Below are positions 224-22,815 of a stretch of 24,000 nt of DNA, one piece after another (position 1 is the stretch's first letter; each line of letters starts with the position of its first letter). The notes under the pieces were generated by a model. It made no database searches. It was not told the DNA's origin and was given only the letters and a program-made list of their open reading frames with translations. The position numbers and the translations under genes were made by a program. This DNA comes from an uncultured delta proteobacterium. GTDB lineage: Bacteria > Desulfobacterota > Desulfobacteria > Desulfobacterales > JAFDCJ01. The stretch lies in NCBI GenBank assembly GCA_963769935.1, contig CAVYNY010000010.1:567890-591889 (forward strand), in the 5' to 3' direction.

Positions 224-908
224 AGTTCCTTCCAGAGAAACGTTATACCCGGCTTCTCCTTCCCTGCAGTGGGTCGCTTGGGCCTCACTTCCCCACCTTA
301 CCGGTCCAGCATTTACGTTCCTGACCATCGGTACTATGATCCGCTAAGACTTCCAGAAAGTCCATCTCGGGTTTGTTCGCTTTTCGCTATCCTCCCCCGA
401 TACCTTGTATTGCTCCTTTGCTTTCGTCTCGCTGGTCAGGTTAGAGCGCCCCTTCACAGCGCCTGGATTCTCGCCTCGTTGCGCTGGCCGGCACCCTCCA
501 ACCGGTTATTGTACACAAGGAAAACATCTGGATCTCCCGAGTTCCCAAGTTACCCCTATGAGCACATGCCCTGGTCTCAGACCCCGGTGGTGTCCCGAAT
601 GCTTGCCATAGCGCATGTGGGACTGCTGCCTTCCGGCCAGATGAACGCCGTCGGCTTTCTCTCATACAAGCGGAACTTATCCCAAGGTCCACAACTATAC
701 ATTTTTCGGGGCTCAATACACAGCCTGCATCCTTGATCCATCCGGCTTCGGACTCCCGTCTCCGGGTTGGCCCGCGGATTCACTACTGACCTGGTGGCTA
801 ACCTTTAGTCAGGTGGGACTTGAACCTAGGTGATCCTCACCCACTGGGTAACAATATCGAATTTCACCTCCTTGGAAGGTTCCCAACGATTCGGGCTTAG
901 CTGGGCAC
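1..908 (-). mobile_element. Group II intron, 5' part (ribozyme domains before and including the start of the intron ORF); the element runs off the left edge
   Basis: Minus strand 908->224 is about 685 nt with stops in every frame; the track shows only short overlapping ORFs there. An ORF starts at 223 and its product matches the N-terminus of group II intron RT/maturases. The minus-strand sequence at 908 reads GUGCCCAGCUAAGCCC, close to the GUGYG 5' consensus. That is also where similarity of the flanking exported-protein ORF stops. Domains V/VI lie outside the window and cannot be checked. Confidence 0.55.
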
Positions 909-1165
909 GACCACTCCTTTGTCAGGTGAATCGGCAGAACAGGCTGGAAGTTCATCACATCCTGCTCGCGGGTCTTGTCCGTCGCTTCCCCCTGCAAGTA
1001 GTAGCGGTTGAACTGAAAGTTCAGTGCCCAGATGTCCGCTACCGGGTTGTTGAGCTGCTTGGCCACATCGGCCATGGACTTGTGATCCGGCGCGGCGGGT
1101 TCGCCCGTCTGGGCACCTGCGCCGCCGGGCAGGCAAAAAACAATACACAGAAAACTAAAAGCCAT
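909..1165 (-). CDS. Exported, probably outer-membrane, protein: N-terminal part / 5' exon interrupted by the group II intron
   Basis: ORF 809..1165 gives MAFSFLCIVFCLPGGAGA|QTGE..., which is signal-peptide like. It continues AKQLNNPVADIWALNFQFN...NFQPVLPIHLTKEW. This resembles the N-terminus of a proteobacterial outer-membrane 'transporter' family (AK.L.NP...L...PFQNN...QPV.P..L...WNLI.R). Similarity ends after KEW at about 909, and the remaining 33 codons are read-through into intron RNA. An upstream out-of-frame ATG (1176) with a better RBS and a 6-A run (1135-1140) suggest an additional frameshift. Confidence 0.5.
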
Positions 1166-1383: not shown

Positions 1384-2923
1384 TCACGGTTGAAGTTCGA
1401 TTTCTCCCGGCCGCCAGGTCTTGTCGAACCACGGCTCAAGCGGGCCGTACAGGCGCAGGATCATGAACCAGCCTTTGCCGGGAATCGTCTGCACCCAGTT
1501 GTTTTCCTTTCCTGCCGGAGCTTTGGGGCCGAAATAGACATCGACCGAGCCGTCCTTGTTGACGAGCAGATCCTTGTTCTGGCTGCTGACGCTGGGGAAC
1601 TGCTGATCGGTTTGGACCATCGAGCGCGTCTGGTTGTCATAGACGATGACCGACCAGAAGTCTTTGACCGGAATGTTTGGCGGCAGGTGCAGCTTATAGT
1701 TGTTTCCGCCCTCAAACGGGTTGCCGTCCGCGTCCTGTGCGCGACCAGGGATACTGCGAACCTTTGCCGACCATTTTCTCCGCCATGGCCGGCGTCACGC
1801 CGGTGGCGAAATAGTAAAAGAAATGGCCCCGTCCAGATTGGCCACGCCGGTGCAGCTCTCGAACTTGTAGCCGCCGAAGAAGGGCAGACGCCAAGGGCTG
1901 TCTGGATAGAAGAAGGCGTCTTTGTCACGAATCCTGAAGGCGATCGCTCGCGCGGTCACGCTGCCAATCTTCGCGGCGTCCGTCAGGATCTTCTTCATCC
2001 GATCATCGGGATTGAAGGGCTTGCCCTTCTCGATGCCGATCGAGGCAAACAGACCCAGCGTGGTGGGGTCGCTTCCCTCGCTTGGCTCTTCCTGAATGGC
2101 TTCGTTCAGGAGACTCCAGAAGGTGTAGTCGCTGGGCGGGACAAAGGTCGAGGGAATGCCCGGAGGCATTGACGAACTTCATCTCGGGAGGATTGGCCGC
2201 ATCGGAGAGCTGATAGATCTTCAGATGTTTCTTGACCGCCTCGACGCCGGGCTTGGTCGAGCCATCGACGAGAAAGGAGCGAAAGGGCATCCAGTTGCCA
2301 TAGGTGCTCGGCCGCACGACGAAATAGCCCTCGGGCACTTCGCCTTTGTAGCCCGGAGGCAGGATCAGATACTTGCCGCCTTTGCCATGGTCTGCACCTG
2401 TAATACCGATGTCGGCAACCCATTGATACCAGAAGTCATCGATGAGACCCAGAACCATGGGTGGAACCTCTACGACCAGCGGCCCCTTTTTCGTGTCAAG
2501 CCAAATGAAGCTATATATGGTGTTGTCGTTCGCCGTCAGTTCCACGGTTTTCGAATCCACAAGGTCTTCCCAGATCACATCTGTCTGGTTTACCGGTCCG
2601 AACTCGCGGAGCGTGGCGCGCATGCCGACCTGGTTGACTATCGGGATGGCAAGCAGGTAGGCCTGCAGCGCTCGCGAGGCATCCAGGTTGTCGTAGACTT
2701 TCTGCGTGGTCGCGTCATCGGGATAGCCGTAGTTCAGGTTCAGGGTGCCGATGGATGTTTCGACCTTGTCAGGTACCGCTATGCCCTGCGGTAAGGAAGT
2801 TGAATACTTGTACTCCGGTGCCGCCGGCGCACCTGAGAGCTGCGGTACGGTGCCGGCACATGAGGCGACCGTGATCAAGGCAGCCAATGCTGTGCAGATC
2901 GATAGTTGGTTGCGTGTTGTCAT
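1384..2923 (-). pseudogene. DUF1254/DUF1214-family lipoprotein gene disrupted by at least 3 frameshifts
   Basis: Four consecutive minus-strand ORF pieces in different frames join into one protein. Piece 1 (2923->~2165): MTTRNQLSICTALAALITVASC (lipobox) ...PEMKFVNASG. Piece 2 (~2160->~1840): IPSTFVPPSDYTFWSLLNEAIQEEP...GGYKFE. Piece 3 (~1850->~1735): RGHFFYYFATGVTPAMAEKMVGKGSQY. Piece 4 (~1745->1384): DADGNPFEGGNNYKLHLPPNIPVKDFWSVIVYDNQTRSMVQTDQ...GWFMILRLYGPLEPWFDKTWRPGEIE, a DUF1214-type C-terminus. A strong RBS AAGGAGG precedes 2923. Confidence 0.75.
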
Positions 2924-3167: not shown

Positions 3168-3470
3168 CTATGGTTTCCACGCCGGTCGAGTGCGCGATTT
3201 GTCGAAACGGATCTCCGGGGGTTCGGCGGCCATCTCGACCACCAGAAGAACTTTGCGGTATTTCTCGGATCGCAGATGACACTGCACGTCCTCGTCACTC
3301 ATCCAGAGTTCCTCGAGCAGGATAGCGCGCCCATCCTCCACACCCCCATAAAGCCAGCGGCCGATACAACCCGGCTCGAATTGGGTCTGCTCGGTCGTCG
3401 AACCCAGAATTTCCAAGGCCTCGCTCTGCTTTTCAAGTGGTATGAGCATCCTGATGGTGGATCGTACCAT
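3168..3470 (-). CDS. Small ABM/Dabb-fold protein (antibiotic-biosynthesis-monooxygenase-like), 100 aa
   Basis: Intact ORF. The pattern ...FEPGCIGRWLYGGVEDGRAILLEELWMSDEDVQCHLRSEKYRKVL...EPPEIRF matches the ABM signature recalled from YgiN-like proteins (epGC..y.ly.d.ed.n.f.l.E.W.s.e.l..Hl.s..f). It lies downstream of the predicted sigma-54 promoter at 3627-3645. Confidence 0.6.
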   Translation of the reverse strand: MVRSTIRMLIPLEKQSEALEILGSTTEQTQFEPGCIGRWLYGGVEDGRAILLEELWMSDEDVQCHLRSEKYRKVLLVVEMAAEPPEIRFDKSRTRPAWKP

Positions 3471-3626
3471 TCTCGTCCCTTTAAGAGTCTTCAGGTCGAC
3501 GGTTTGTAAACCGTCCGCCGGGGATCCGAACCCGTCCGGAGGTTCACAGAAATTATTGATACTATCTGATGAAACAGCGCAGGCATCTCTGTAGATCTAT
3601 AAAATTTTCCTGCTTCCCAACTATGT

Positions 3627-3645
3627 GAGCGAAATCTATGCCAGA
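3627..3645 (-). promoter_or_regulatory. Predicted sigma-54 (-24/-12) promoter P2
   Basis: Minus strand reads CTGGCATAGATTTCGCTC. GG (3642-3641) and GC (3630-3629) have the canonical spacing of YTGGCACGrNNNTTGCW. The -12 region ATTTCGCT is identical to that of P1 at 19987-20005. The site is about 155 nt upstream of the ABM-like start. Confidence 0.55.
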
Positions 3646-3741
3646 TGGATGAGAACAGGCTGCCTGTCGGATAAGACCCTTTATATATTAGATTTTTGCT
3701 AATTGGCGCCGGGTGAACGCAAGGGGAATAAAATCGGCTTT

Positions 3742-3777
3742 CTGCCGATATTTCGGCACACTGCTCTTATTTCGGCA
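3742..3777. promoter_or_regulatory. Predicted enhancer (UAS): palindrome TGCCGA-N4-TCGGCA plus an extra direct half-site
   Basis: TGCCGATATTTCGGCA at 3742-3757 is identical to 20102-20117. It sits exactly 100 bp upstream of the -24 GG of P2. TATTTCGGCA is repeated at 3748-3757 and 3768-3777, 20 bp apart. Confidence 0.5.
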
Positions 3778-11144: not shown

Positions 11145-14114
11145 TTATCTTCTCAATTCATCCGCCAATTCCAGGATACCACTCAGGTCAAAATCCTCAG
11201 ACAGTTGAATTATTTTGTCACAAAAAGGTGTGAGACCATTATTTTCAGACTTCAACGTTTTGGCAATCGATGCTATTTGCACCACATCTCCCATTTCAGC
11301 CGCCGCTTTGATGCGATCGGCCAGGTCTCGAGCTATTTCGGGGGCTATACAGGCCATTTCGGATTCGGTGCACGCGACGGTTTTCTTTTCAGACATGGGA
11401 ACCAGGGTTTGAACCGCGTCCAGCGCCTGCCCGAGAGCTTCTTGCAGGTCTGTTAATTTCCGGTTCAATTCTGTATCGGAGGCCGCCTCCCCTGCCCACC
11501 CTTTAACGAGTTTTTCCATTGCCACCGCTGCTGCCTGGAGGTCGACGGCGGCCAGATTTCCGGCCAGCCCCTTCAAGTTGTGAACCAGGCCGTGGGCACG
11601 ATTAAAATCTTTGGCCGCCAATGCCTCACGGATGTCAGCGGCGGCGCCGCAGCAGCTGGCGCCGAAATCAAGCAACAGCTTGCGGTAAAGGCGCTTGTTG
11701 TCCATCAGACGCGCCAGACCCGCCGCCAGATCAAAGCCCGGCAAAGATTCAGGCAGTTCATCTTCATCCGTCTTCGCCTGAACAGCCTGCGCTGGTGCAT
11801 CAGGTACCGGTGACCCTCCTGAGGCGGGCAAACTTTTTGGGTCGACGATCCGCTCTGCAGCCGGTTTGATCCACTTCTGCAGGGCGGCAAACAGCTGGTC
11901 CGGATCAATGGGTTTGGTCACATGATCGTTCATCCCGGCCGCCAAACTCCTCTCCCGATCGCCGGCCATGGCATGGGCCGTCATCGCGATGATAGGAATG
12001 GGATGCTGGATGCTGGATACTGGATACTGGATACTGGTTGGCGGCAGTTCAGAGGACTGAGGACCCGTCTTCGTCGGGGTAAGTGAGGGAATACGCCGCG
12101 GCGAGCTGAGGACCGAGGGTTGGCCCTCGATTTCGGATTTTAAATCAGAATCCTCTCCGACAGTCTTCCTTGTTTTCAATACATCAGTATCCGCGTTAGC
12201 GGAGACTGATTCCCACTTCCGGATCTCCCGTGTGGCTTCAAAACCGTTCATCTCAGGCATCTGTATATCCATGAGCACCACATCGTAGATCCGCTCCTTG
12301 ACCATCGCCGCTGCTTCTTTGCCGTTGTTGGCAATGCTCACCACCAATCCTGCGTTCTCCAGAATCTCCTGCGCCACCTGCTGATTGATCGCATTGTCCT
12401 CCGCCAGCAGCACTTTTGCCCCGCGAATCTTATCAAGCTCCTGCGCCGCATCGGTCCCCGCCCGGGCTTCGCGCTCAAGCTCAGGAACTTCCTTGCCGAA
12501 AGCGGCCATGATCGCGTCAAAAAGCATGGACTGGCTCACGGGTTTGAGGAGAAAACCATCCAAGCCTATTTTCTCGGATATCCGCATGAGCTCTTCACGG
12601 CCATAGGCCGTCACGATGATAATCTTGGGCTTGCGGGGGATGTCGGAATGCCTGTTGATAATTTCGGAAGCCTCAATGCCATCCATCCCCGGCATTTTCC
12701 AGTCCATCACCACCAGCTGATACGGCCGGAGCTTCGCTTCCCTCGCCAGTTCTGCGATGCCCTCCTCCGCCGAGGCTGCCACTGAAACCTCAAAACTCAT
12801 GCTCGCAAGCAGCGTCTGTAGAATCTCACGGGAGGATGCATTGTCGTCCACGACTAAAACCCGCATCCCCTTCAGATCCAGCGACGGCTCCAGGTATCTC
12901 TCCGTCACTCTCCCCGTTAAACCGAATTTTGCGGTGAATATGAAATTGCTGCTCTTGCCGGGTTCGCTCTCAACCCAGATTTCCCCTTTCATCATGTTCA
13001 CCAGGTGCTTGGAGATGGTCAGCCCGAGCCCCGTTCCCCCGAACTTGCGCGTCGTGGACGAATCCGCCTGGGTAAAGGCCTCAAACAGCTTCTGCCTCTG
13101 CTCGGGGGTCACTCCGATCCCCGTGTCGCGAACGGAAAATCGAAGCATCACCCATTGTTCCTCTTTTTCCACCATTTCGGTGGCAAGCACGATCTCTCCG
13201 GCCTCTGTAAACTTCACCGCATTGTTGCACAGGTTGGTCAGCACCTGGCCCAGCCGCAATGGATCCCCCACCAGCGCCATGGGCACCTCCGGCGCCGTAT
13301 CCATCAGGAACTCCAGCTTTTTGTCCTGAGCCTTCACACCGGCAATCGTCGCTACGTTATCCAGGACTTCATCCAAGCCGAAATCCACAGACTCCATGTG
13401 CAGCTTCCCCGCTTCAATCTTGGAAAAATCCAAAATGTCGTTGATGATTCCCAGCAGGGAATTGGCGGAACGCTGGATCTTGTTCAAATAATCCTCTTGC
13501 TTGGGGGTCAAGGCCGTCCGAAGCGCCAAATGAGCCATTCCGATCACGGCATTCATGGGGGTCCGGATCTCATGACTCATGTTGGCCAGAAAATCGCTCT
13601 TGGCTTTTGTGGCGGCCTCGGCCGCCTGCTTGGCGAGGTGCAGTTCCTCAGCTCTGGTTTTTAATTCTTCGTTTTTGGCCTTCAGGTCGTTCAAAAGTTC
13701 CAGCCTGGAGGGACGTGCCAGACTTTGTCTTTGCATTTCGACAAACTCATCCGACAGGTGACCGGCGCTATCCGGCAGATAGCTGAATGTCCTGATTCTG
13801 ACCGTCTTCTGCTCAGTGCGGTCGATTTCAAATGTGTCAAAAAAAAATTTTAAATTCGGCATTGAGATCAATTGCTCAGGGCACTGAAAGGTCATCCATA
13901 GTCCGCTCCGGCCCTCACGCCGGTCAATGCCGACAGAAATTTTTGTGCCCTTGCCGCCCTTTCTTCCCAAGCCGGTGATTTCAGAAACAATCGTTTCCAG
14001 CCGGGTGGCATGAATCGGTTCGCAGCCTAAATCTTCGGCCAGCAAGCGAATCTTTTTCCGCGCCGCAACTCTGGTATTTTCGTTCTTTACCGATAAATTA
14101 CCGAGTTTGATCAT
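11145..14114 (-). CDS. Cytoplasmic hybrid histidine kinase, 989 aa: novel N-terminal domain, coiled coil, HisKA, HATPase, REC, REC, HPt, C-terminal extension. Paralogue of the 1770-aa kinase.
   Basis: Intact ORF with RBS GGAGG and a start that overlaps the rsbX-like stop by 17 nt. No TM segment. H-box [16 protein letters not shown]; [10 protein letters not shown]; DTGIGV; GGTGLGL. REC1: [27 protein letters not shown]2: [35 protein letters not shown]. HPt: [14 protein letters not shown]. From the H-box to the C-terminus it aligns by eye at roughly 70-75% identity with the 1770-aa protein. Confidence 0.92.
12000..12209 (-). repeat. In-frame segment of about 70 codons in the alpha3-beta4 loop of REC2 of the 989-aa kinase, containing a 7-nt tandem array
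   Basis: It lies between IRKWE and (I)[10 protein letters not shown]. Plus strand 12001-12035 reads ggatgct ggatgct ggatact ggatact ggatact, which encodes [13 protein letters not shown]; the repeat is therefore at DNA level, not protein level. The distal end has cagtatcc (12186-12193), complementary to ggatactg. There is an internal hairpin GAGGGttggCCCTC. Confidence 0.6.
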
Positions 14115-14709
14115 GCTTCCTACCTCCCAGATACTTCAGCACAATACAGGATGCGTCATCATTTTCCTTCCAAAATTGCTTGAGCAGCGCGCTGGCGATG
14201 GATTCCGCGGTACCTTTCAGTATTTCCGGACACTCGGAGAGTTCGAAATGCTCCTTAATGCCGTCTGAATGCATAACGAGAACATCTCCAGCCAATAGTT
14301 TCAGGGCTTGCTTTTTGACGGTGGACATCATGTAGCCGACGATTCCATCTCTGGAAACGAATCGAACGGCCCTCGGACCGAGCACCCTTACCACGATGTT
14401 GCCCATACCGACGTAAATCAGCTCGCCTGTCGCGGTGTCCAAACGGCAAATGGCCGCCACGGCGCCCCGCGTGCCCTTGAGACACGTATGCAGACCCTGC
14501 ATAACTTCGACCGGCTCTTTGCGGCAATTCTGTTCCAGATACGTTTGGGCTGTAAGCGCAACATCATGCGCTTCGCGCCCGTGGCCCAGCACATCAACCA
14601 GTGCCAGAAAACACCGGCCGTCAAACTCTTTTATGACCCCCGTGTCGCCGCATTCAGCTTCTCTTCGGGTAAGCGCTCGCTTTACCAGATGGCAGTCCAC
14701 TCTTGACAT
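14098..14709 (-). CDS. rsbX: PP2C/SpoIIE-type serine phosphatase, RsbX-like (about 203 aa)
   Basis: The start is taken at MSRVDCHL (ATG 14709) inside track ORF 14098..14997, because the upstream part of that ORF overlaps the rsbT-like gene. The sequence ECGDTG...ALVDVLGHG...[12 protein letters not shown]...GMGNIVVRV...LVMHSDGI parallels B. subtilis RsbX (..CGDSF..AVADGLGSG..RGATASILK..SVGNVRF..IIHTDGL). Confidence 0.8.
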
Positions 14710-15142
14710 AATCGCCCCACTTCCGTGTTGAAACAACGGTGCCGCGCCCCGGCTGAGACTCGATCCTGAACTCGTCCATAATCCGTTTAACGCTCGGCAA
14801 TCCCAGCCCCAGGCTGCCTTTAGTCGTGCTGAAATTATCCTGCAGCGCCTGTTCGATGTCTCTGATTCCCGGCCCGTCGTCACGGGCAATAATTTCGATG
14901 CCCAAGCGGTTGTTGCGTTGGACAATTCGCAAGGTAAGTTCGCCTTTTTGGGCATAGTTGACGATGTTGGTCGCGAGCTCTGAAGCCGCTGTGGCAATCA
15001 AAAACTGATTGACTTCATCGAAACCGGCCGCAGCAGCCAGGTGTCTCGCCGCTGTAATCACCTGCTCCTTGTCGTTCTGATCGGACAGCAGGATTCGTCT
15101 TTCATTATATTTCGGCGGGGCGGCCCGTTCATTGTTCACCAT
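14654..15142 (-). CDS. rsbT: RsbT-like GHKL serine kinase / switch protein (anti-sigma regulatory factor family)
   Basis: ATG 15142 has an AAGGGG RBS; the track ORF starts at GTG 15157. The start overlaps the rsbS-like stop by 14 nt. The sequence VITAARHLAAAAGFDEVNQFLIATAASELATNIVNYAQKGELTL..IIARDDGPGIRDIEQALQDNFSTTKGSLGLGLPSVKRIMDEF parallels B. subtilis RsbT (ISELARNIYLYAG..AEDQGPGIPD..GFSTSGGLGAGLPGVKRLMDEF). Confidence 0.85.
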   Translation of the reverse strand: MVNNERAAPPKYNERRILLSDQNDKEQVITAARHLAAAAGFDEVNQFLIATAASELATNIVNYAQKGELTLRIVQRNNRLGIEIIARDDGPGIRDIEQALQDNFSTTKGSLGLGLPSVKRIMDEFRIESQPGRGTVVSTRKWGDYVKSGLPSGKASAYPKRS

Positions 15143-15584
15143 CGCTGTCCCCTTCACCGTTTTCTATTACGATGCTATCCGGGTCCTCAGCGTCCTGAAC
15201 CCCCTCCTGAATCGATAAAACGTTTTGGATCTGCTCGAACCCGTCTTCCATGGTCAGGGCCGCACGGATACCATCGATTTCGACCTCCAGATCGATCAGC
15301 GACGATACGACGCCGGGCTGCAGGCCGACGAATACGTTCGCCACCCCCAGCAGCGACGTCATCCGCGCGGTGTCGGCCAGGAATTTGAACGCATGCGAAT
15401 CCAGGGCGCGCACCGTACTAAGGTCCAGTATCATCCCCCGTACTTTCGCTGCTTGAATTTTCTGCAAAATGGCCGTTCGAATTTTCATCAGCGTGTCATC
15501 GTAAAGCTCACCCTGCAAGGTAACCACAAGACAGCCGCGGATGGTGCTCATTGCGGTTTCGCTATCGATCAGCAGGCCTTTCAT
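15129..15584 (-). CDS. rsbS: RsbS-like STAS-domain protein with an acidic C-terminal tail
   Basis: The ATG lies 2 nt after the rsbR-like stop. The sequence CLVVTLQGELYDDTLMKIRTAILQKI..GMILDLSTVRALDSHAFKFLADTARMTSLLGVANVFVGLQPGVVSSLIDLEVE parallels B. subtilis RsbS, including the phosphorylatable Ser context (MIDSFIAK versus ALDSHAFK). Confidence 0.85.
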   Translation of the reverse strand: MKGLLIDSETAMSTIRGCLVVTLQGELYDDTLMKIRTAILQKIQAAKVRGMILDLSTVRALDSHAFKFLADTARMTSLLGVANVFVGLQPGVVSSLIDLEVEIDGIRAALTMEDGFEQIQNVLSIQEGVQDAEDPDSIVIENGEGDSDGEQ

Positions 15585-15586
15585 TA

Positions 15587-16411
15587 TCAGGATTTCCTCC
15601 CCAGGGGCTTGATTTCGCGCACCTCAAAATTCATCATCTTGAACGAATCCTCCAAGGCGTCTCTTAAAGTAGAGTTGGTCTTGACCTCACCCATCTCGAT
15701 TCCCAACTGGACGATCGTACTCGCCACAGCCGGCGAAATCCCGGAAATAATACACTGGCAGCCCATCAGCCGCGTGGCCTTGGTGATCTTGATCAGGTGA
15801 TTGGCCACGGCGGTGTCGACCGCTGCCACGCCCTGGATGTCAAGGATGATTACCTTGGCCGACGTCTCCTTTATTTTGGTCAGCATGGTGTTGGTCATCT
15901 GCTGAGCCCGCATGGAGTCGATCACACCCACCACCGGAAGGACCAGCACCCGGTCCCAGAGTTCGATGGTCGGCGTCGATATCTCCCGGATCGTGCGGCT
16001 TTGTTCTTCCAACCTTTGTTCATCGCGGACCTTCTCGCTGATGTCGAGCATAAATTCCAGACCTCCGATGACATTTCCTTCCGGGTCTTTGAGTGGGACG
16101 GCATAGTATTCAATGTACACGGTTTGATCGCCCATTGGAATCTCATTCCGACCGGACCGAACCTCATAATTCTCTATGGCCTGAAGCATTCGGCAGTCCA
16201 TGGTCTGGCAATGGGCTGAACCAAATAGATCGTAACAGTGCTGTGTTGCGACCTCCTCCCATGACTTGCCGAGGAATTTGCGACCGGCGGCATTCATGTA
16301 AATGATTTCCAAGTCTTTATTCACCGCCATTACCGGGGTAGGAATTTGTTCCAGAATCTGCTCCTGAATTCCAGAATATGCCTGATTTTCTGTTTTGATC
16401 TTTTCGTTCAT
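15587..16411 (-). CDS. rsbR: RsbR-like stressosome sensor: N-terminal Cys/His-rich PAS domain plus C-terminal STAS domain
   Basis: RBS AGGAG. The C-terminus VIILDIQGVAAVDTAVANHLIKITKATRLMGCQCIISGISPAVASTIVQLGIEM closely parallels B. subtilis RsbRA (IDITGVPVVDTMVAHHIIQASEAVRLVGCQAMLVGIRPEIAQTIVNLGIEL). The N-terminus is PAS-like (IPTPVMAVNKDLEIIYMNAAGRKFLG...). Confidence 0.85.
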   Translation of the reverse strand: MNEKIKTENQAYSGIQEQILEQIPTPVMAVNKDLEIIYMNAAGRKFLGKSWEEVATQHCYDLFGSAHCQTMDCRMLQAIENYEVRSGRNEIPMGDQTVYIEYYAVPLKDPEGNVIGGLEFMLDISEKVRDEQRLEEQSRTIREISTPTIELWDRVLVLPVVGVIDSMRAQQMTNTMLTKIKETSAKVIILDIQGVAAVDTAVANHLIKITKATRLMGCQCIISGISPAVASTIVQLGIEMGEVKTNSTLRDALEDSFKMMNFEVREIKPLGRKS

Positions 16412-16481: not shown

Positions 16482-16560
16482 ATCACGAAAATACGAAATA
16501 TAGAAAGCACGAAATTTATCTTATCTTTTTCGTGTTTTCGTCCTTTCGTGCTTTCGTGAT
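16482..16560. repeat. Imperfect 33-nt inverted repeat built of (t)ttcgtg(n) 7-8-mers, between the asmA-like and rsbR-like genes
   Basis: Left arm 16482-16514: atcacgaaaatacgaaatatagaaagcacgaaa. Right arm 16528-16560: tttcgtgt tttcgtcc tttcgtgc tttcgtga t. 26 of 33 positions are complementary, with a 13-nt loop. T-runs flank it on the plus strand only. Confidence 0.6.
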
Positions 16561-16617: not shown

Positions 16618-19600
16618 CTATTGCCCGATGCTGTGGATGTTGCACGGATGGGCTTTATAAGCGCCGAGGTTGACAAAGGGCGCCAACAGTCCGAGCGGGC
16701 CGATCACCAGCGCACTGAGGGCCTTGGCGCCTTTCGATAATAGAGAAAACATATCCGGCCGCACCTTGGGGTCCGTGATCGGGCCGCTGACGCGCAGCTT
16801 GGTCCAAAAGTCCATGAGGCTCGGAAATCTGGGCTCCGGAACGAGCAAAAAATCAACCTGTTCCGTGCCCAGATTGATGTCGCCTTCGCCGGTCAGCACA
16901 CCCGCCTCGGTGTCGAACACGAACGCTTGGCTGGCTGCTATTCCGCTGCTGATATCAAATTGAACGACGGCGCACTTGATTTCTCCGCCTTCGTGGTGGC
17001 TGCCCCAGAAATGAATGACCTTTCTGGTAAGACCCAGCGAAATCAGGTCCAGGTAGTGGGTCAGGTAGCCTTTGCCCATGACGGCCCCCACGCTGCCGTC
17101 CAGACCGGCCATCAGATCATGCAGGGAGCCGCCCCGGCTATTGACATCGACGGCGATATCGAGGTGGGAACGGACCTGCTGGCTGATCCGCAGTCCCCGC
17201 AGAAGTCCGCCGAGGTCAAAGTCCTGGACGAGGAATTTGGCGGCGACCCGGGCCGGCGATTCGGGATAGAGATGGAAGTTGCCGGAAATTCGGGTCTGCT
17301 GGTAAGTCGCCTGAAGCGTTTCGACGTTGAGATCACCGTTCTCGACGGTGAGCATCAGGCGGCCGAACTCAAAGTTTGCATCGCGGGCGCGGACGTTTTT
17401 AGCATTCAGGCTGATGTCTGCGTCCACTTGCTTGAGAATATTTAAAGGCAGCGGATCATCGCTGAATAATCGGCCTTCCAACCTGCCGGGCTCCCTACCG
17501 GGCTCTTTTTCGTCCTGCCTCAGATTTTTCAGCAGCGCCGTCATATCCAGCAGCGAAGATTCCAGTCTCAATGTGATCTTCGGGCGTTCGCGAAACTCAA
17601 CTTTTGCCAGGCCGTTGAAGTCGCTTTTATCGACGACCGCCGTCAAATCGGCCAGGGAAAAAGACCGGGCCGACCCGCTGAGATGTCCGCTGAAATCAAA
17701 GGGGCCCAGTTCGGGGAGGTTGGCGCCGACCAGGGGACCGATCTCGGCCAATTCCTTTCCCCCGGCTTTCAGCCTCAGGTCCATGCCTTCGAGCGCCGGC
17801 AGGTCTTTGATTGTCCCGGTTGCCTCCAGGCTTAAGCTGCCGCGCCGGGCCTCGCCCCGGACCTCCTGCAGGGACAACGCCCCGGCTGAGCCCGCCAGGC
17901 GACCCTGCAGTGAAAACGCATCGGTCGGGGGCAGCTTCTGTCCGACAATTGTCTCAGCCTGGGCCAAGTCCTTGCCGGCCCCTTTCAGTCGCAGATCCAC
18001 ATGCCGAAAGGCGCGCAGGTCCCCAATCTTGCCGGTTACCGTCAGGTTCAGGTCGCCGCGTAGGGCCTGGCCCATAATGTCATGCAAGGACAGCGCCCTG
18101 CCGGAGCCCGTCAGACGGCCCTCCAGAACAAATTCATCCGTCGACGGCAGCTTCTGTGCTATGATCGACTCCGCCTGTGCCAGGTCTTTACCCGTACCCC
18201 TCAGCCACAAATCCACGTAGCGGAAGGCCGGCAGGTCCTCGATCGCACCCTCGACCGTCAGGTTCAGGCTGCCGCGCCGGGCCCGGCCCCGGATATCATG
18301 CAGGGCCAGCGCTCTGCCGGAGCCCGTCAGGCGACCCGCCAATTCAAATTCATCGGTCGAAAGCAGCTTCTGCCCGATGATCGACTCCGCCTGTGCCAAG
18401 TCATGGCCCGTGCCCTTAAGCCGCAGATCCACTTGCCGAAAGGCAGCCAGGTCCCCAATAGCACCTTCGGCCGTCAGGTTCAGGCTGCCGCGATGGGCCC
18501 GGCCCTGAAAATTCTGCAGGGACAGGGCTTTGGCTGAGCCAGTCAGACGACCCTGCAGGGCAAACTCATCGGTCGGCGGCAGCTTTTGACCGACAATCTC
18601 TCCCACCTGCGCCAAGTCCTTGCCCGTACCCTTGAGCTGCAGGTCCACGCCCTGGAAAACAAGCAGGTCCCCGATTGCACCCTCGGCCGCCAGGTTCAGG
18701 CTGCTGCGCCGGGCCTGTCCCCGAACGTCCTGCAGGGACAAGGCCTTGGCCGAACCCGTCAGACGGCCCTCCAGGGAAAACTCATCGGTCGGCGGCAGCT
18801 TCTGACCGACCATCGCTCCCACCTGCGCCAGGTCCTTGCCCGAACCCTTTAGCTGCAGGTCCATGTCCTGCAGCGCCATCAGATTGCCGACTCGACCGCT
18901 GACGGCCAACGCAGCCTCGCCGGCCGACACAGTGCCGCTGATGTTTTCCAGCATAGGAAACCGGCCGGAACCTGCCAAATGTCCGCTGAGATCGAAAGCG
19001 TCCGTCTGCGGCAGCTCTGCACCGATACCACGCCCTAACTCCTGGAGGCTCTTCCCAGCGACGCGAAACTTCAGATCAAGCCCTTGCAAAGCGCGGACCT
19101 CACCGATCGATCCGGCGAGGTTGACGGTTGCGCTCAAAAACCGTCCTGCCAGCTCAAGCGGAAACTGTTCGCCTGATACGATCCGCTGCAGCCGGCCGAT
19201 CCGGCCGGAAAGCGCAACGGGCTGCCCGTTGTAGTCGGCCTGGAGCTTGAGCGCCAGAAAATCAGGATCTGCCCGCCGGGCTATTTCAAGGCCGGCCAGA
19301 TTGAACCGGGTCGTATGGGCCGCTTTCTCATCGCGATAGGTGAGCTTAAGGTTTTCGACCCGGATATCCTCCACCGCGATATGCAGGCGGGTGGGCGGGC
19401 CGGATGGCGATGCAGAGCCGGCAGAGGCTGTAAATTGCCAGTTGCGTTGCCCGGCTGCATTCATCACCAGGACCACATCGACGCCGGATAGCGTAAGATA
19501 CTTCAACTCGACATCACCGAACAACAGCGGCAGGAGCCGGACCTTGGCCTCTATTCGCCGGGCGGTTATCATCTGCGGGTCGGAAGCCCAGGGGGCGTTG

Positions 19601-19818
19601 GCCAAAGCCACTTCCGTGACCATAAGGGCCGGTGATAAACCGAATTTAAGACCCACCTCGCCGCCCAGCGTCAATTCCCGGCCGGTGCGTTCTGCGACCA
19701 TCCGCTCGATCCGCGGCTTGAGCTTGGCGTAGTCGTAGGTGCTCAAAACCAGATAGGCCGCTGCCGCCAAAGCGACAATTAAAGCGGCCCCGACCAATGC
19801 AATCCATTTCCAACGCAT
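16618..19818 (-). CDS. AsmA-family protein (1066 aa) with an expanded internal repeat region
   Basis: Intact ORF. The N-terminal TM anchor and AsmA-type start are MRWKWIALVGAALIVALAAAAYLVLSTYDYAKLKPRIERMVAERTGRELTLGGEVGLKFGLSPALMVTEVALANAPW. The C-terminus is AsmA_2-like (..DLNVETLQATYQQTRISGNFHL.. GGEIKCAVVQFDISSGIA). Confidence 0.85.
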   Translation of the reverse strand: MRWKWIALVGAALIVALAAAAYLVLSTYDYAKLKPRIERMVAERTGRELTLGGEVGLKFGLSPALMVTEVALANAPWASDPQMITARRIEAKVRLLPLLFGDVELKYLTLSGVDVVLVMNAAGQRNWQFTASAGSASPSGPPTRLHIAVEDIRVENLKLTYRDEKAAHTTRFNLAGLEIARRADPDFLALKLQADYNGQPVALSGRIGRLQRIVSGEQFPLELAGRFLSATVNLAGSIGEVRALQGLDLKFRVAGKSLQELGRGIGAELPQTDAFDLSGHLAGSGRFPMLENISGTVSAGEAALAVSGRVGNLMALQDMDLQLKGSGKDLAQVGAMVGQKLPPTDEFSLEGRLTGSAKALSLQDVRGQARRSSLNLAAEGAIGDLLVFQGVDLQLKGTGKDLAQVGEIVGQKLPPTDEFALQGRLTGSAKALSLQNFQGRAHRGSLNLTAEGAIGDLAAFRQVDLRLKGTGHDLAQAESIIGQKLLSTDEFELAGRLTGSGRALALHDIRGRARRGSLNLTVEGAIEDLPAFRYVDLWLRGTGKDLAQAESIIAQKLPSTDEFVLEGRLTGSGRALSLHDIMGQALRGDLNLTVTGKIGDLRAFRHVDLRLKGAGKDLAQAETIVGQKLPPTDAFSLQGRLAGSAGALSLQEVRGEARRGSLSLEATGTIKDLPALEGMDLRLKAGGKELAEIGPLVGANLPELGPFDFSGHLSGSARSFSLADLTAVVDKSDFNGLAKVEFRERPKITLRLESSLLDMTALLKNLRQDEKEPGREPGRLEGRLFSDDPLPLNILKQVDADISLNAKNVRARDANFEFGRLMLTVENGDLNVETLQATYQQTRISGNFHLYPESPARVAAKFLVQDFDLGGLLRGLRISQQVRSHLDIAVDVNSRGGSLHDLMAGLDGSVGAVMGKGYLTHYLDLISLGLTRKVIHFWGSHHEGGEIKCAVVQFDISSGIAASQAFVFDTEAGVLTGEGDINLGTEQVDFLLVPEPRFPSLMDFWTKLRVSGPITDPKVRPDMFSLLSKGAKALSALVIGPLGLLAPFVNLGAYKAHPCNIHSIGQ
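17563..19074 (-). repeat. Coding tandem array, 7 x 216 nt (72 aa); the central five copies are highly similar
   Basis: The protein units start L(Q/R)LKG(S/T)GKDLAQ..GQKLPPTDEF.L.GRLTGS..ALSL....G.A.RGSLNL...G.I.DL..F..VD. They cover aa 249-320, 321-392, 393-464, 465-536, 537-608, 609-680 and 681-752; the first and last are degenerate. At DNA level, neighbouring central copies (17779-18858) are about 90% identical by eye over stretches such as actcatcggtcggcggcagcttctgaccgac. Confidence 0.85.
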
Positions 19819-19986
19819 GGCACACTTTACCTTTGCCGGCAGTTTTTTTGCTGCGGCGTTTCTTAATGTAAGGGTCTAATCTTCCTCAATAAACGGAAAT
19901 TGGAAAAAGTAACCGCTGTGGCTCAGCAAATTTATCACAAAAACCGCAAAAATTTACCCCCCAACGATACCAAGACGAGTAAACCA

Positions 19987-20005
19987 TAGCGAAATATGTG
20001 CCAAT
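19987..20005 (-). promoter_or_regulatory. Predicted sigma-54 (-24/-12) promoter P1 upstream of the asmA-like gene
   Basis: Minus strand reads ATTGGCACATATTTCGCTA: TGGCAC at 20003..19998 and the -12 GC at 19990..19989, with canonical spacing. It is about 170 nt upstream of ATG 19818 and directly downstream of the sigma-54 activator gene. Confidence 0.6.
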
Positions 20006-20101
20006 CTGGCAACAACTGATTGAAGGCGACATAAGGTGCCTTGGTAGCTGGGTTTATTCTCAGATGGAATGGGAAAAGCCGGCTTAAGAAATGCGGTGAT
20101 A

Positions 20102-20117
20102 TGCCGATATTTCGGCA
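20102..20117. promoter_or_regulatory. Predicted enhancer (UAS) palindrome TGCCGA-N4-TCGGCA
   Basis: TGCCGATATTTCGGCA lies 100 bp upstream of the -24 GG of P1 and 20 bp after the bEBP stop codon. An identical 16-mer with identical spacing to a second sigma-54 promoter is at 3742-3757. Confidence 0.55.
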
Positions 20118-20136
20118 GAACGCCCGTATTACAGCA

Positions 20137-22815
20137 TCACTTGGCGGGGCGCCGGATGCCCAGTTTTTTTATCTTCGACTGCAGGGTGGTGCGCTTGAGA
20201 CCCAGAATCTCCGCGGCACCGCCCTGTCCTGTAAGGCGCCAGCCGCTTTTCTCCAGAACGCCCAGGATGTGCCGGCGTTCGGCATCCGCCAGGCTGAGAT
20301 TCGCGGGGATATCGGAAGACGCCGTCCGGGGTGCGCTGACGTCCAGGGATTTGCCGCTGCTCACAATCATGGCGTGCTCGACGACATTTCGCAGCTCCCG
20401 GGCGTTGCCCGGCCAGAGGTAATGCTGCAGGTCTTCCATGCTTTTGCGCGGGATGTGGTCGATGCGCTTGCCCATCTTTTTTTCATACTGCCTGACAAAG
20501 GCCCAGACCAGCAGGGGAATATCCTCCGGCCGTTCCCGCAGCGGCGGCACGGCTATGGGAAACACATTCAACCGGTAATACAGGTCCTTTCTGAATTTTG
20601 CTTCGGCCACATCGCGGGCCAGATCCCGGTTGGTGGCCGCGATGATGCGCACGTTCACCTGCAGCGGCTTGGTGGATCCCAGACGCTCGAACCGGCCTTG
20701 TTCCAGCACCCGCAGCAGCTTGGCCTGCACATCCTGCGGCAGATCCCCGATCTCGTCCAGAAACAGCGTGGCCCCGTCGGCCACCTCGAAACGGCCCGTC
20801 ATCCGGGTCAGCGCACCGGTATAAGCACCTTTTTCACGGCCGAAAAGCTCGCTTTCGATCAGCGTGGGCGGCAGCGAGGCACAGTTGACGGTCACCAGGG
20901 ACCGGTCCTTGCGGGCGCTCAGTCGATGCACGGCCCGGGCCAGAAGCTCCTTGCCGGTGCCCGTTTCCCCCTCGATCAGGACGGTGGTATCCGTCCGGGC
21001 CACCTGCTCGACCTGGGCCAGAATCGCCTTCAGGGCACGGCTGCGGCCGACAATCTCCTCGTGCACATTCTGCAGCTCGATCTCTTCCCGCAGGTAGATG
21101 TTCTCCTTTTCCAGCTGCCGCTTGAGGCCTTCGATCTCCTCGAGTCTCACCTGCAGCTGTTCTTCCATCTGCTTGCGCTCGGAGATATCAATGGATACAC
21201 CCATCAGGCGTTCCGACTCCCCTGACGGACTAAAATAGGGACGGCCGCGACCGGCCATCCACCTGATAGTACCGTCGGGGCGGATGATGCGGTATTCCTC
21301 TCGAAAATCAGCCCGCGTCCGTTTGCACTCTTCTACGCTCCTGCGAATCCGAGCGCGGTCTTCCGGATCGACGATTTGCATGAAACCCTCGAAATTCAGC
21401 TCCTGCCCCGGGGCAAATCCATATAATTCCCTGGTTTTTTCGGTGCCCCAAATACGTCCGTTGGAAGTTTCTAAATTCCACAGGCCGGCTTCCGCAGAAG
21501 TGGCGGCCAGATTTAGGCGCGCCTCGCTTTCGCGCAACGCTTCCTCCGAGCGCTTGCGATCGAGCGCGGCGGCAAATACGGCCACGATGAGACTCATCCG
21601 CTGTACCAAATCCACCGGCCAGATCCGCTCCGCACGCACCGCCACTAGTGCGCAGGATCCCAGCGTCCTGCCTCCACTTAACATGGGAATTGAAAGCAAC
21701 GATTTCATGCCCTTGACCCGACAAAGGCGCCGCTCCCCTTCGGCTTCAGCCGGCAGGTCTTCCAGCCGATCGACCACCACCAAATTACCTTGCCGTAATT
21801 GCGCGATGTACCATGGCAATTGATGCTGCGAAAGGAAAACAGGCGCGGGCTCGATCCCTTCCAGATGATATTCAAATGCGCTTTGCAACCGAGCCCCGTC
21901 TTCGGTAAATATTCCTATGGAACACCGGTCCGCATCGAAAAATTCGGTGATGCGCTGGAGCCACTTATTGATTTCGCCTTCGACTTTATCGGTCGAAATG
22001 TTCACAAATCCGGCCGAAAGATCGGATATTAACTCCTCAAACCGCAGTCGATCCGCCGACTGCTGCCGTGTCTGGGCAAGCTGCAGGGTGTTTACAAGGA
22101 TCTCTCCCAGCAGGCGCAGCCGCGGAATATAATCTTCAGGCCAGGCACATTCTTTACGGACCGCATTTATGGAAATGATGTAATCCAATGAGGCACCGAC
22201 GGTGATCGGGATGTTCAGAGCGGATCGAATTTCCAATCTCTCGTATGTTTGCCGGTCGACCGCGGCCTCGCCCGGCAGCTCATCGCGTGTGGTGAAGGAG
22301 ACGACTTCATGCCGCTGAATAATTTTCTCGTAGACCCAGGGAAACAACATGAGGGAAAGGTCGGCATTTTCCGGTACGGGGGAAACCTCAGAGGCATACG
22401 CGACATGGGTGATCCGAAATGAAGTATCGATCGGTGAAATCCGGACCAGGCCGCAGCGGTCCACCTGGAAAAAATCGAGTATCTGCGTCAGGGCACTTCG
22501 AATTTGGTGATCGACCTGGTCAGGAGCCAAGTTGATAAATCGGGCCGAAAGGTCTGACAACAGCCGCTCAAATTGCAGGCGTTCTTTGAGGCCCACCTCG
22601 GCCAGTTTGCGCTGTTCGATTTCCCGATTCAGGCGTTCGCGGACGGCAGCCAATTGCTCTTTTGCTCCGGCCGAATCCACCGCCAGTGCTTTTACGGGCC
22701 GGGCCGGGCCCGCGTGCGACCGCAGCAGAGCTTCCCCGGCCCGCCGGCTGTCTGCATTTTTCTGCGCATATTGCCGGCGATTGGTTTTTGCATTTTCCAG
22801 TCGGTCGTTGACCAT
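20137..22815 (-). CDS. Sigma-54-dependent transcriptional activator (bEBP), 892 aa: GAF-like x2, PAS, AAA+ sigma-54 interaction domain, Fis-type HTH; no receiver domain
   Basis: RBS AAGGAGG. Walker A: [14 protein letters not shown] variant: EKGAYTGA. Also present: [56 protein letters not shown]-terminal HTH: [21 protein letters not shown]. The motif L.FE.L(L/I)SDLSA.F(I/V)N occurs twice and precedes the two GAF-like modules. Confidence 0.92.

What the first reader, a model, noticed from the sequence alone, without database searches (positions are those of the whole stretch)
19987..20117. Sigma-54 promoter plus palindromic enhancer directly behind the bEBP gene, with the same architecture repeated 16 kb away
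The minus strand at 20005..19987 reads ATTGGCACATATTTCGCTA, i.e. TGGCAC-N5-TCGC with -24 GG and -12 GC at consensus spacing.

Exactly 100 bp upstream (g20002 to t20102) lies TGCCGATATTTCGGCA, an inverted repeat TGCCGA-N4-TCGGCA. I found this 16-mer only once more in the window, at 3742-3757. There it is again exactly 100 bp (g3642 to t3742) upstream of a second minus-strand sigma-54-type promoter, CTGGCATAGATTTCGCTC.

The roughly 100 bp between palindrome and promoter is unrelated in the two copies. The conserved spacing is therefore not a by-product of a segmental duplication, which argues for functional constraint. By my rough estimate, a chance 16-mer repeat in 24 kb is expected about 0.1 times. 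Adding a shared second motif (ATTTCGCT) at identical distance makes chance very unlikely.

The palindrome sits 20 bp after the stop of the GAF-GAF-PAS-AAA+-HTH activator, so that protein is the obvious candidate binder. The predicted target is the AsmA-like gene. No convincing terminator follows it, so the target may extend to the downstream RsbRSTX-kinase cluster.
Basis: partly seen in the sequence, partly recalled or inferred. Interest (0 to 1): 0.72.

Follow-up and report, generated by a model that had tools for sequence, protein, structure and literature searches.

The report
Conserved sigma-54 enhancer-promoter pair, FhlA-type
Two real, evolutionarily conserved sigma-54 promoters share a tandem activator-binding enhancer about 114 bp upstream, very probably bound by the neighbouring FhlA-like activator; this is a new but conventional regulon of cell-envelope genes in sulfate-reducer relatives.

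Summary
The 16-mer TGCCGATATTTCGGCA lies at 20102-20117 and 3743-3758, not 3742-3757. Each copy sits upstream of one of the only two sigma-54 consensus matches in the window. The spacing is 114 and 115 bp, so it is not identical.

- The palindrome-promoter pair recurs directly behind the orthologous activator gene. I found 37 non-identical sites from metagenomes and genomes, spaced 110-116 bp, mode 114.
- Each enhancer is tandem. A perfect proximal palindrome is preceded by a degenerate distal copy 19 bp upstream, which abuts the activator's stop codon.
- An A-tract at -82 to -76 and TTATC at -57 to -53 are conserved at fixed positions.
- The activator's DNA-binding helix covaries with the site. 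KRTTLQ proteins carry TGCCGA/TCGGCA; KRTTLL relatives, like E. coli FhlA, carry TGTCGA/TCGACA.

The motif is therefore a one-base variant (TGC-N10-GCA) of the classic NifA/FhlA TGT-N10-ACA enhancer.

Targets across relatives are envelope genes: AsmA, cardiolipin synthase, DedA, DUF2845, MarC and a small ABM protein. Site B drives the ABM gene, the most conserved target. Extension into the RsbRSTX-kinase cluster is partly supported: one relative has a compact operon of that kind.

Verdict: real, functional, and a new member of a known kind.

The parts
20137..22815 (-). Activator gene (bEBP), 892 aa. Two GAF-like domains, PAS, AAA+ sigma-54 interaction domain with a GAYTGA loop, and a Fis-type HTH ([17 protein letters not shown]).
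   Evidence: Pfam Sigma54_activat E 1.3e-69, plus GAF, PAS_3 and HTH_8. Translation. Internal GAF duplication. Best NCBIfam model is FhlA, at 387 bits against a cut-off of 830.
20121..20136 (-). Distal, degenerate enhancer site A (TGCTGTAATACGGGCG). It directly abuts the activator's TGA stop codon and starts 19 bp upstream of the proximal site.
   Evidence: Sequence. The same TGA-TG(C/A)CG... arrangement is conserved in orthologues and paralogues.
20102..20117 (.). Proximal enhancer site A: the perfect palindrome TGCCGA-N4-TCGGCA, centred near -132.5.
   Evidence: Conserved in 37 non-identical sites.
20030..20059 (-). Central conserved module A: A-rich tract GAATAAA (-82 to -76) and TTATG (-57 to -53). 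Candidate DNA bend or architectural-protein (IHF-like) site.
   Evidence: Promoter-anchored conservation profile. Only a weak match to the E. coli IHF consensus.
19988..20003 (-). Sigma-54 promoter A, TGGCAC-N5-TCGCT. GG is at 20002/20001 and GC at 19990/19989. Predicted transcription start is near 19977.
   Evidence: The regulon-wide consensus is cC-TGGCAC-g.ATTTCGCT.
16618..19818 (-). AsmA-family gene (1066 aa), the first gene downstream of promoter A after a roughly 160-nt leader.
   Evidence: Pfam AsmA E 6e-35. AsmA lies downstream of the same enhancer and promoter in 6 sites.
11145..16411 (-). RsbR (PAS-STAS), RsbS (STAS), RsbT-like kinase, RsbX/SpoIIE phosphatase and a hybrid histidine kinase. 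Possible, unproven, downstream extension of transcription unit A.
   Evidence: Pfam. No further sigma-54 or enhancer site in the window. A compact equivalent operon sits behind the enhancer in L099. A 206-nt gap with a hairpin lies in between.
3762..3777 (-). Distal, degenerate enhancer site B (TGCCGAAATAAGAGCA), starting 19 bp upstream of the proximal site.
3743..3758 (.). Proximal enhancer site B: the perfect palindrome, identical to that of site A.
3670..3699 (-). Central conserved module B: GCAAAAA (-82 to -76) and TTATC (-57 to -53).
3628..3643 (-). Sigma-54 promoter B, TGGCAT-N5-TCGCT. Predicted transcription start is near 3617.
3168..3470 (-). ABM-domain gene (100 aa), the first gene downstream of promoter B and the most widely conserved target of this activator family.
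   Evidence: Pfam ABM E 2e-7. ABM homologues lie directly behind the activator, enhancer and promoter in many loci, including activators only 50-77% identical.

Best explanation
Both sites are activator-dependent sigma-54 promoters served by a tandem enhancer.

Proposed mechanism (inferred from the anatomy below and from established knowledge of this activator class):
1. Dimers of the adjacent FhlA-type activator bind through their C-terminal Fis-type HTH. They occupy the perfect palindrome TGCCGA-N4-TCGGCA (centre about -132) and a weaker copy 19 bp further upstream.
2. On an unknown signal sensed by the GAF-GAF-PAS module, the activator assembles into an active AAA+ ring.
3. The intervening DNA carries a fixed A-tract and TTATC module around -80 to -53. 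It loops, with or without an IHF-like protein.
4. ATP hydrolysis then remodels RNA polymerase-sigma-54 held at TGGCAC-N5-TCGCT.

Outputs:
- Promoter A drives the AsmA-like gene, and possibly the stressosome-kinase genes behind it.
- Promoter B drives the ABM-protein operon.

Shown here: the sequence elements, their conservation, their geometry, the gene associations, and the protein-DNA covariation.

Inferred: binding itself, looping, the transcription start sites and the signal.
For: - The only two sigma-54 consensus matches and the only two palindromes in the window are paired, at 114 and 115 bp.
- The pair is conserved behind the stop codon of orthologues at 59-85% identity, and of a 719-aa GAF-only paralogue family whose AAA+-HTH module is about 90% identical.
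- There are 37 non-identical sites, spaced 110-116 bp with a mode of 114.
- In 516 kb of loci chosen only by protein similarity, the palindrome occurs 35 times against about 1.1 expected.
- Specificity covaries. Of 44 distinct KRTTLQ-type HTHs, 35 are followed by at least two TGCCG/CGGCA pentamers and none by TGTCG-type sites. Part of this set (L082-L199) was picked by the DNA pattern itself. KRTTLL-type relatives L019, L020 and L034 carry TGTCGA-N4-TCGAC in the same tandem 19-bp arrangement.
- E. coli FhlA has KRTTLL, and TCGACA/TCGTCA half-sites occur upstream of hyc/hyp and fdhF.
- Other genomes also carry two such sites: L011/L012, L171, and L084 with L145 on one contig.
- The activator has an intact Walker A motif, a GAYTGA loop and HTH_8.
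Against: - There is no experimental evidence: no mapped transcription start, no binding assay, and rpoN was not seen because it lies outside the window.
- The -12 element is TCGC rather than the consensus TTGC.
- Site B has no adjacent activator gene, so its activator could be a paralogue encoded elsewhere.
- The match of the central module to the E. coli IHF consensus is poor at both window sites.
- A weak sigma-70-like match (TTGCCA-18-TATGGT) overlaps promoter A.
Confidence: 0.85

Rival explanations
1. The enhancer is real, but one or both sites, especially site B, are served by a paralogous activator rather than, or in addition to, the adjacent 892-aa protein. The candidate is the 719-aa GAF-only family, which has a nearly identical AAA+-HTH module. 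Different sensors would then converge on one enhancer code.
For: The paralogue family shares about 90% identity over the AAA+-HTH module and the same HTH sequence. It is followed by an identical enhancer and promoter. In several genomes the shorter form, not the long form, sits next to the ABM gene (L032/L033). No activator gene or remnant lies next to site B.
Against: No paralogue is present in the 24-kb window or the 35-kb source contig. Whether this genome encodes one is unknown. In L011, L012 and L015 a single long-form activator is followed by both sites in series.
Confidence: 0.25
2. The palindrome is an RNA hairpin that terminates or stabilises the activator's transcript, not a protein-binding site.
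For: It lies 19 nt after the stop codon and can form a 6-bp stem with a 4-nt loop.
Against: No U-tract follows it, and the terminator scan does not report it. The same element sits 280 bp from any upstream ORF at site B. Across 37 sites the arm sequence is fixed, and variants are single-arm changes that break pairing with no compensatory pairs. The arm base covaries with a protein residue instead. The distance to the promoter is fixed.
Confidence: 0.03
3. The downstream genes are transcribed from sigma-70 promoters or by read-through from the activator gene, and the -24/-12-like elements are inert.
For: A 9/12 sigma-70-like match (TTGCCA-18-TATGGT, 20012..19983) overlaps promoter A. The activator gene is co-oriented with no terminator in between.
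Against: The sigma-70-like hexamers are not conserved in orthologues, whereas TGGCAC and TTTCGCT are nearly invariant. Site B shows the same sigma-54 element without an upstream co-oriented gene close by.
Confidence: 0.05
4. The repeat is a chance match or the residue of a segmental duplication or mobile element.
For: An identical 16-mer appears twice in 24 kb. Roughly 0.1-0.3 such pairs are expected by chance.
Against: The flanks are otherwise only 39% identical. The pair architecture recurs in dozens of independent genomes.
Confidence: 0.01

Closest known systems
E. coli FhlA and its upstream activating sequences at hyc, hyp and fdhF
   Same: - It is the best-scoring named family; the match covers the AAA+ domain through the HTH.
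- The recognition helices are nearly identical: [17 protein letters not shown] in FhlA against [17 protein letters not shown] here.
- FhlA-region half-sites are TTTCGACA, ATCGACA and TTTCGTCA; here they are TTTCGGCA and TATCGGCA.
- Both have clustered sites roughly 100 bp or more upstream of a sigma-54 promoter and an N-terminal GAF-type sensor.
   Different: - The score of 387 bits is far below the equivalog cut-off of 830.
- This protein has an extra PAS domain.
- No hydrogenase or formate genes are among the targets; the targets are envelope genes and an ABM protein.
- The half-site has G where FhlA sites have A or T, matching Q against L in the helix.
NifA-type TGT-N10-ACA enhancers (the class also cited for FhlA and many Clostridiales activators, PMC6615313)
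   Same: Inverted repeat with a 10-bp interval between the outer triplets, located upstream of a -24/-12 promoter and bound by a GAF-AAA+-HTH activator. The KRTTLL relatives found here carry exactly TGT-N10-ACA, as TGTCGA-N4-TCGACA.
   Different: The window's motif is TGC-N10-GCA. It is recognised as a longer 6+6 palindrome, arranged as a tandem pair 19 bp apart, with a tightly fixed distance of 114 +/- 2 bp to the promoter.
Adjacent-operon activators of Desulfovibrio vulgaris (sigma-54 regulome, PMC4641369)
   Same: One-component GAF/PAS activators in sulfate reducers that control a neighbouring operon through a palindrome upstream of a sigma-54 promoter. Variant GAFTGA loops such as GAYTGS and GAYTDA are regarded there as functional.
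   Different: That study covers Desulfovibrionales. A text search of it found neither this motif (GCCGA, TCGGC) nor AsmA, monooxygenase or FhlA.
PspF and the phage-shock response (from my own knowledge, not tested here)
   Same: A sigma-54 activator that controls a small regulon of inner-membrane and envelope-maintenance genes, with IHF-assisted looping.
   Different: PspF lacks a sensor domain and is controlled by PspA. No psp genes appear among the targets here. The resemblance is thematic only.

Membership tests
Sigma-54 (-24/-12) promoter | GG and GC dinucleotides 10 bp apart within TGGCAC-N5-TTGCW | tested here: met
   TGGCAC-ATATT-TCGCT and TGGCAT-AGATT-TCGCT. One departure from consensus: -14 is C instead of T. 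This departure is conserved across the regulon.
Sigma-54 (-24/-12) promoter | Conserved at orthologous positions | tested here: met
   37 non-identical sites have near-invariant TGGCA and TTTCGCT.
Sigma-54 (-24/-12) promoter | rpoN-dependent transcription start about 12 nt downstream of the GC | not testable with these tools
   No transcriptome data. rpoN is not in the window.
Bacterial enhancer-binding protein (bEBP) | AAA+ sigma-54 interaction domain (PF00158) with Walker motifs and a GAFTGA-type loop | tested here: met
   PF00158 E 1.3e-69. [13 protein letters not shown] and GAYTGA are present. GAY variants are regarded as functional in PMC4641369.
Bacterial enhancer-binding protein (bEBP) | C-terminal HTH that binds an upstream activating sequence | tested here: inconclusive
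   HTH_8 is present. Binding was not assayed. HTH residue and half-site covariation (Q with C/G, L with T/A) supports direct recognition.
FhlA (formate hydrogenlyase activator) equivalog | Score at or above the curated NCBIfam NF011958 cut-off over the full length | tested here: not met
   387.5 bits against a cut-off of 830. The match covers only residues 545-889.
FhlA (formate hydrogenlyase activator) equivalog | Controls hyc, hyp or fdhF-type genes | tested here: not met
   The downstream genes are AsmA, ABM, Cls, DedA, DUF2845, MarC and others.
TGT-N10-ACA class enhancer (NifA/FhlA type) | Inverted TGT...ACA triplets separated by 10 bp, roughly 80-150 bp upstream of the promoter | tested here: not met
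   The geometry is met, with the centre near -132. The triplets are TGC...GCA. The exact TGT...ACA form is found in KRTTLL-type relatives. This is therefore a one-base variant of the class.
Intrinsic terminator | G+C-rich stem followed by a U-tract, with stem pairing maintained by compensatory change | tested here: not met
   No T-run follows, and the scan does not report it. Variants break pairing and none are compensatory.
IHF-assisted sigma-54 promoter | WATCAANNNNTTR site between enhancer and promoter | tested here: inconclusive
   The A-tract and TTATC module is conserved at a fixed position. Only 9 of 35 sites match the E. coli consensus with at most 1 mismatch anywhere in the spacer, at scattered positions (3 near -76, 3 at -67). 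Neither window site matches.

The most novel reading that the evidence does not exclude
The enhancer code defines a previously undescribed sigma-54 regulon for envelope and membrane-lipid remodelling in Desulfobacterales-like bacteria. Its members are an AsmA-like lipid transporter, cardiolipin synthase, DedA, DUF2845 periplasmic proteins, MarC and a conserved ABM protein.

The regulon would be run by FhlA-type activators that keep one output module and one enhancer but swap sensor modules (GAF-GAF-PAS against GAF).

In this genome and at least one other, it would also be wired directly to a stressosome (RsbRSTX) and hybrid-kinase phosphorelay.

A single helix residue (Q or L) would set the enhancer base (G or A).
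Probability: 0.35. Interest if true: 0.55.

Novelty: new member of a known kind. Interest (0 to 1): 0.4.

Why it matters
- It gives a concrete, testable regulatory code for an abundant but uncharacterised activator family. That code comprises a binding site, a fixed geometry and a promoter flavour. The family is found in sediment Desulfobacterales and is currently mis-labelled 'formate hydrogenlyase activator'.
- It links sigma-54 to AsmA-like, cardiolipin synthase and DedA genes, whose regulation is poorly known.
- It offers a natural one-residue, one-base specificity pair (Q with G, L with A) for FhlA/NifA-type HTH domains.
- It suggests transcriptional control of a proteobacterial stressosome cluster.
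- None of this changes how sigma-54 enhancers are thought to work.

Tried and rejected
- Rfam on the whole window found only a group II intron, and nothing at either site or leader.
- The 163-nt leader of promoter A folds no better than shuffled sequence (z 0.08), so no riboswitch or attenuator is proposed.
- I looked for a decayed activator gene next to site B and found none.
- The exact ABM protein is not on record in the contig index.
- The IHF consensus scan gave only weak support.
It did not return the source genome. It therefore could not give a regulon census or an enrichment figure for this organism.
- Literature searches found no description of this motif or regulon.
- The terminator reading, the sigma-70 reading and the duplication reading were considered and rejected, as set out under the rival explanations.

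Full report
**1. Observation**

The minus strand reads TGGCACATATTTCGCT at 20003..19988 and TGGCATAGATTTCGCT at 3643..3628. These are the only two matches to TGGCA-N6-TYGCW in the window, against 0.38 expected. A relaxed scan adds nothing convincing.

The 16-mer TGCCGATATTTCGGCA occurs at 20102-20117 and at 3743-3758. No other copy exists, even with 2 mismatches in the arms. The spacing from palindrome start to the T of TGGCA is therefore 114 nt at site A and 115 nt at site B, not identical. The palindrome at A begins 19 nt after the activator's stop codon.

**2.

Both sites carry a second, degenerate copy starting exactly 19 bp upstream of the perfect palindrome.
- At A it is TGCTGTAATACGGGCG (20136..20121), directly abutting the TGA stop.
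- At B it is TGCCGAAATAAGAGCA (3777..3762).

The spacers are mostly unrelated. Promoter-anchored identity is 39%, against 26% for shuffles. They do share an A-rich tract at -82 to -76 and TTAT(C/G) at -57 to -53.

**3. Genes**

On the minus strand, in order of transcription:
- an 892-aa activator (two GAF-like domains, PAS, AAA+, HTH_8);
- site A;
- AsmA-like (1066 aa);
- RsbR, RsbS, RsbT-like, RsbX/SpoIIE;
- a 989-aa hybrid kinase and a 1770-aa hybrid kinase;
- a 233-aa unknown ORF;
- site B;
- an ABM-domain protein (100 aa) and a DUF1254 protein.

The activator has Walker A, DEIGD and a GAYTGA loop. Its two N-terminal GAF-like halves are 31% identical. The window comes from a metagenome contig. 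The same protein also lies on an 825-kb NCBI contig.

**4. Conservation**

A protein search found hundreds of orthologues. Those with a source-given organism name are from Desulfobacterales MAGs, and many are labelled 'formate hydrogenlyase transcriptional activator' by their source. It also found a 719-aa GAF-only family that is about 90% identical over the AAA+-HTH part only.

Eighty metagenome loci were fetched by protein similarity alone. The palindrome followed by a sigma-54 element recurs immediately behind the activator's stop codon.
- Pooling all loci gives 37 non-identical sites.
- Spacing is 110-116 bp, with a mode of 114.
- The consensus is cC-TGGCAC-g.ATTTCGCT.
- The A-tract and TTATC module sits at fixed positions.
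- In the protein-selected 516,509 bp, the palindrome with at most 1 mismatch occurs 35 times against about 1.1 expected.

The AT core flips orientation between loci (AAATAT or ATATTT) while the arms stay fixed. Arm variants are single-sided and break pairing. That fits a symmetric protein-binding site and not an RNA stem.

The 719-aa paralogue (L200) has the identical arrangement: palindrome 19 nt after the stop and promoter 116 nt further on.

**5. Who binds**

The C-terminal helix [11 protein letters not shown](M/I)KKLGI accompanies the TGCCGA-type site throughout. More distant relatives in the protein-selected set have L at the Q position (LGMKRTTLLSK; L019, L020, L034). They carry TGTCGAAATAAAGTC.. 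followed 19 bp later by TGTCGA-N4-TCGAC. This is the same tandem layout with T/A in place of C/G.

Tabulated across distinct HTH sequences:
- 35 of 44 Q-type proteins are followed by at least two TGCCG/CGGCA pentamers, and none by TGTCG-type sites;
- 3 of 4 non-E. coli L-type proteins have TGTCG/CGACA.

The loci fetched by DNA pattern (L082-L199) are biased towards the motif. The protein-selected loci L002-L081 are not, and they show the same split.

E. coli FhlA has [17 protein letters not shown]. The hyc-hyp and fdhF upstream regions carry TTTCGACA, ATCGACA, TGTCGAC and TTTCGTCA/TGACGA. This covariation is the strongest available evidence, short of an experiment, that the adjacent activator's HTH reads the palindrome.

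**6. Targets**

Genes behind the enhancer-promoter pair vary but share a theme:
- ABM protein (12 sites, including activators only 50-77% identical);
- DUF2845 small secreted proteins;
- a 188-aa membrane protein of unknown family;
- cardiolipin synthase (PLDc);
- DedA/VTT;
- AsmA (6 sites);
- MarC;
- DUF3302 plus an HlyD-like protein;
- a 313-aa protein of unknown family with an N-terminal signal-like hydrophobic stretch (cluster C5; no Pfam hit);
- a DUF4410 lipoprotein;
- a sulfatase.

In L011, L012 and L015 the order is activator, site, small lipoprotein, second site, ABM. The window has the same order, with 16 kb in place of the small gene. Other genomes also carry two sites: L171, and L084 with L145 on one contig.

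**7. The Rsb extension**

No other sigma-54 or enhancer site exists in the window. The 206-nt AsmA-RsbR gap contains a long hairpin built of CACGAAA repeats (z -4.9), flanked by A-runs rather than followed by a U-tract. It is not a canonical terminator in the sense direction.

In L099, a 76% orthologue, the promoter is followed by SBP_bac_3, a PAS sensor, RsbR, RsbS, RsbT, RsbX and a kinase, with gaps of 23-79 nt. In L002 (82%), AsmA is followed by an unrelated gene. The link is therefore plausible but not general.

**8. Comparison with what is known**

The best named family is FhlA, but the score is far below the equivalog cut-off: 387 against 830 bits, with only the AAA+-HTH part matching. 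The targets are unrelated to formate metabolism.

The motif is TGC-N10-GCA. This is a one-base variant of the TGT-N10-ACA class described for NifA, FhlA and many Clostridiales activators (PMC6615313). The general pattern of an activator controlling the adjacent operon through an upstream site and a sigma-54 promoter is well documented in sulfate reducers (PMC4641369). A text search of that study found neither this motif nor AsmA, monooxygenase or FhlA.

The genome-wide composite scan also turned up Bacillota activators (Cytobacillus and others) with PRQTLQYKL helices followed by TGCCGAATAATCGGCA and a sigma-54 promoter. This suggests the TLQ/TCGGCA pairing is widespread.

**9. Verdict**

Mechanistically it is a textbook enhancer-dependent sigma-54 system.

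What is new:
- the particular regulon, consisting of envelope and lipid genes plus an ABM protein;
- the tandem 19-bp site layout abutting the regulator's stop codon;
- the rigid 114 +/- 2 bp geometry;
- the Q/L to G/A specificity correlation.

I rate it a new member of a known kind, of moderate interest.

Noticed in passing
window 572-822 (-), with ORF 809-1165 (-): A group II intron (Rfam RF02005 D1-D4, 105 bits) begins inside or just after a 118-aa ORF. That ORF matches the N-terminus of a 313-aa protein family of unknown function (cluster C5), which in L171 and L014 lies behind the same enhancer and promoter. The gene in the window appears to be interrupted by the intron.
   Followed up: partly
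window 1384-2923 (-): The DUF1254 gene downstream of the ABM gene is split over three frames: 2923..2003, 2169..1795 and 1620..1384. The last piece ends with a DUF1214-like C-terminus. This looks like a frameshifted pseudogene or assembly errors.
   Followed up: no
window 16482-16560 (-): A long imperfect hairpin built from CACGAAA/TTTCGTG repeats lies in the AsmA-RsbR gap (whole gap z -4.9 against shuffles). It is flanked by A-runs and has no U-tract in the sense direction. Its role is unknown.
   Followed up: partly
window 5284-10596 and 11145-14114 (-): Two tandem hybrid histidine kinases share a kinase-REC-REC-Hpt part that is about 60% identical. The larger one adds periplasmic-binding, SBP_bac_3 and PAS domains. 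Its PAS segment is nearly identical in motif to a stand-alone PAS sensor in L099.
   Followed up: partly
L200 6001-8300; P0084-P0099: A 719-aa GAF-only activator family has an AAA+-HTH module about 90% identical to the window's protein, with an identical enhancer and promoter. It is followed by unknown genes, cardiolipin synthase, DedA and AsmA. This looks like sensor swapping on a fixed output module.
   Followed up: partly
L092, L093, L118, L120, L133, L137, L146, L147, L157, L176 (Cytobacillus, Bacillus, Sporosarcina): Bacillota sigma-54 activators with the helix PRQTLQYKL are followed by TGCCGA(A/G)TAATCGGCA and a TGGCA-N6-TTGC promoter 110-122 bp downstream. The half-site is the same in a distant phylum.
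   Followed up: no
L032/L033 6033-6048: A perfect TGCCGAAATATCGGCA also lies at the 5' end of the activator gene itself in this paralogue locus. This may indicate autoregulation or a divergent target.
   Followed up: no
L019, L020, L034, L061, L071 downstream of the activator: These relatives use promoter variants with TGGAAT instead of TGGCAC, for example TTGGAATGATTTTCGCA. The -24 element is therefore relaxed while the TTCGCA -12 flavour is kept.
   Followed up: no
window 19983-20012 (-): A sigma-70-like match (TTGCCA-18-TATGGT, 9 of 12) overlaps sigma-54 promoter A. The hexamers are not conserved in orthologues.
   Followed up: partly
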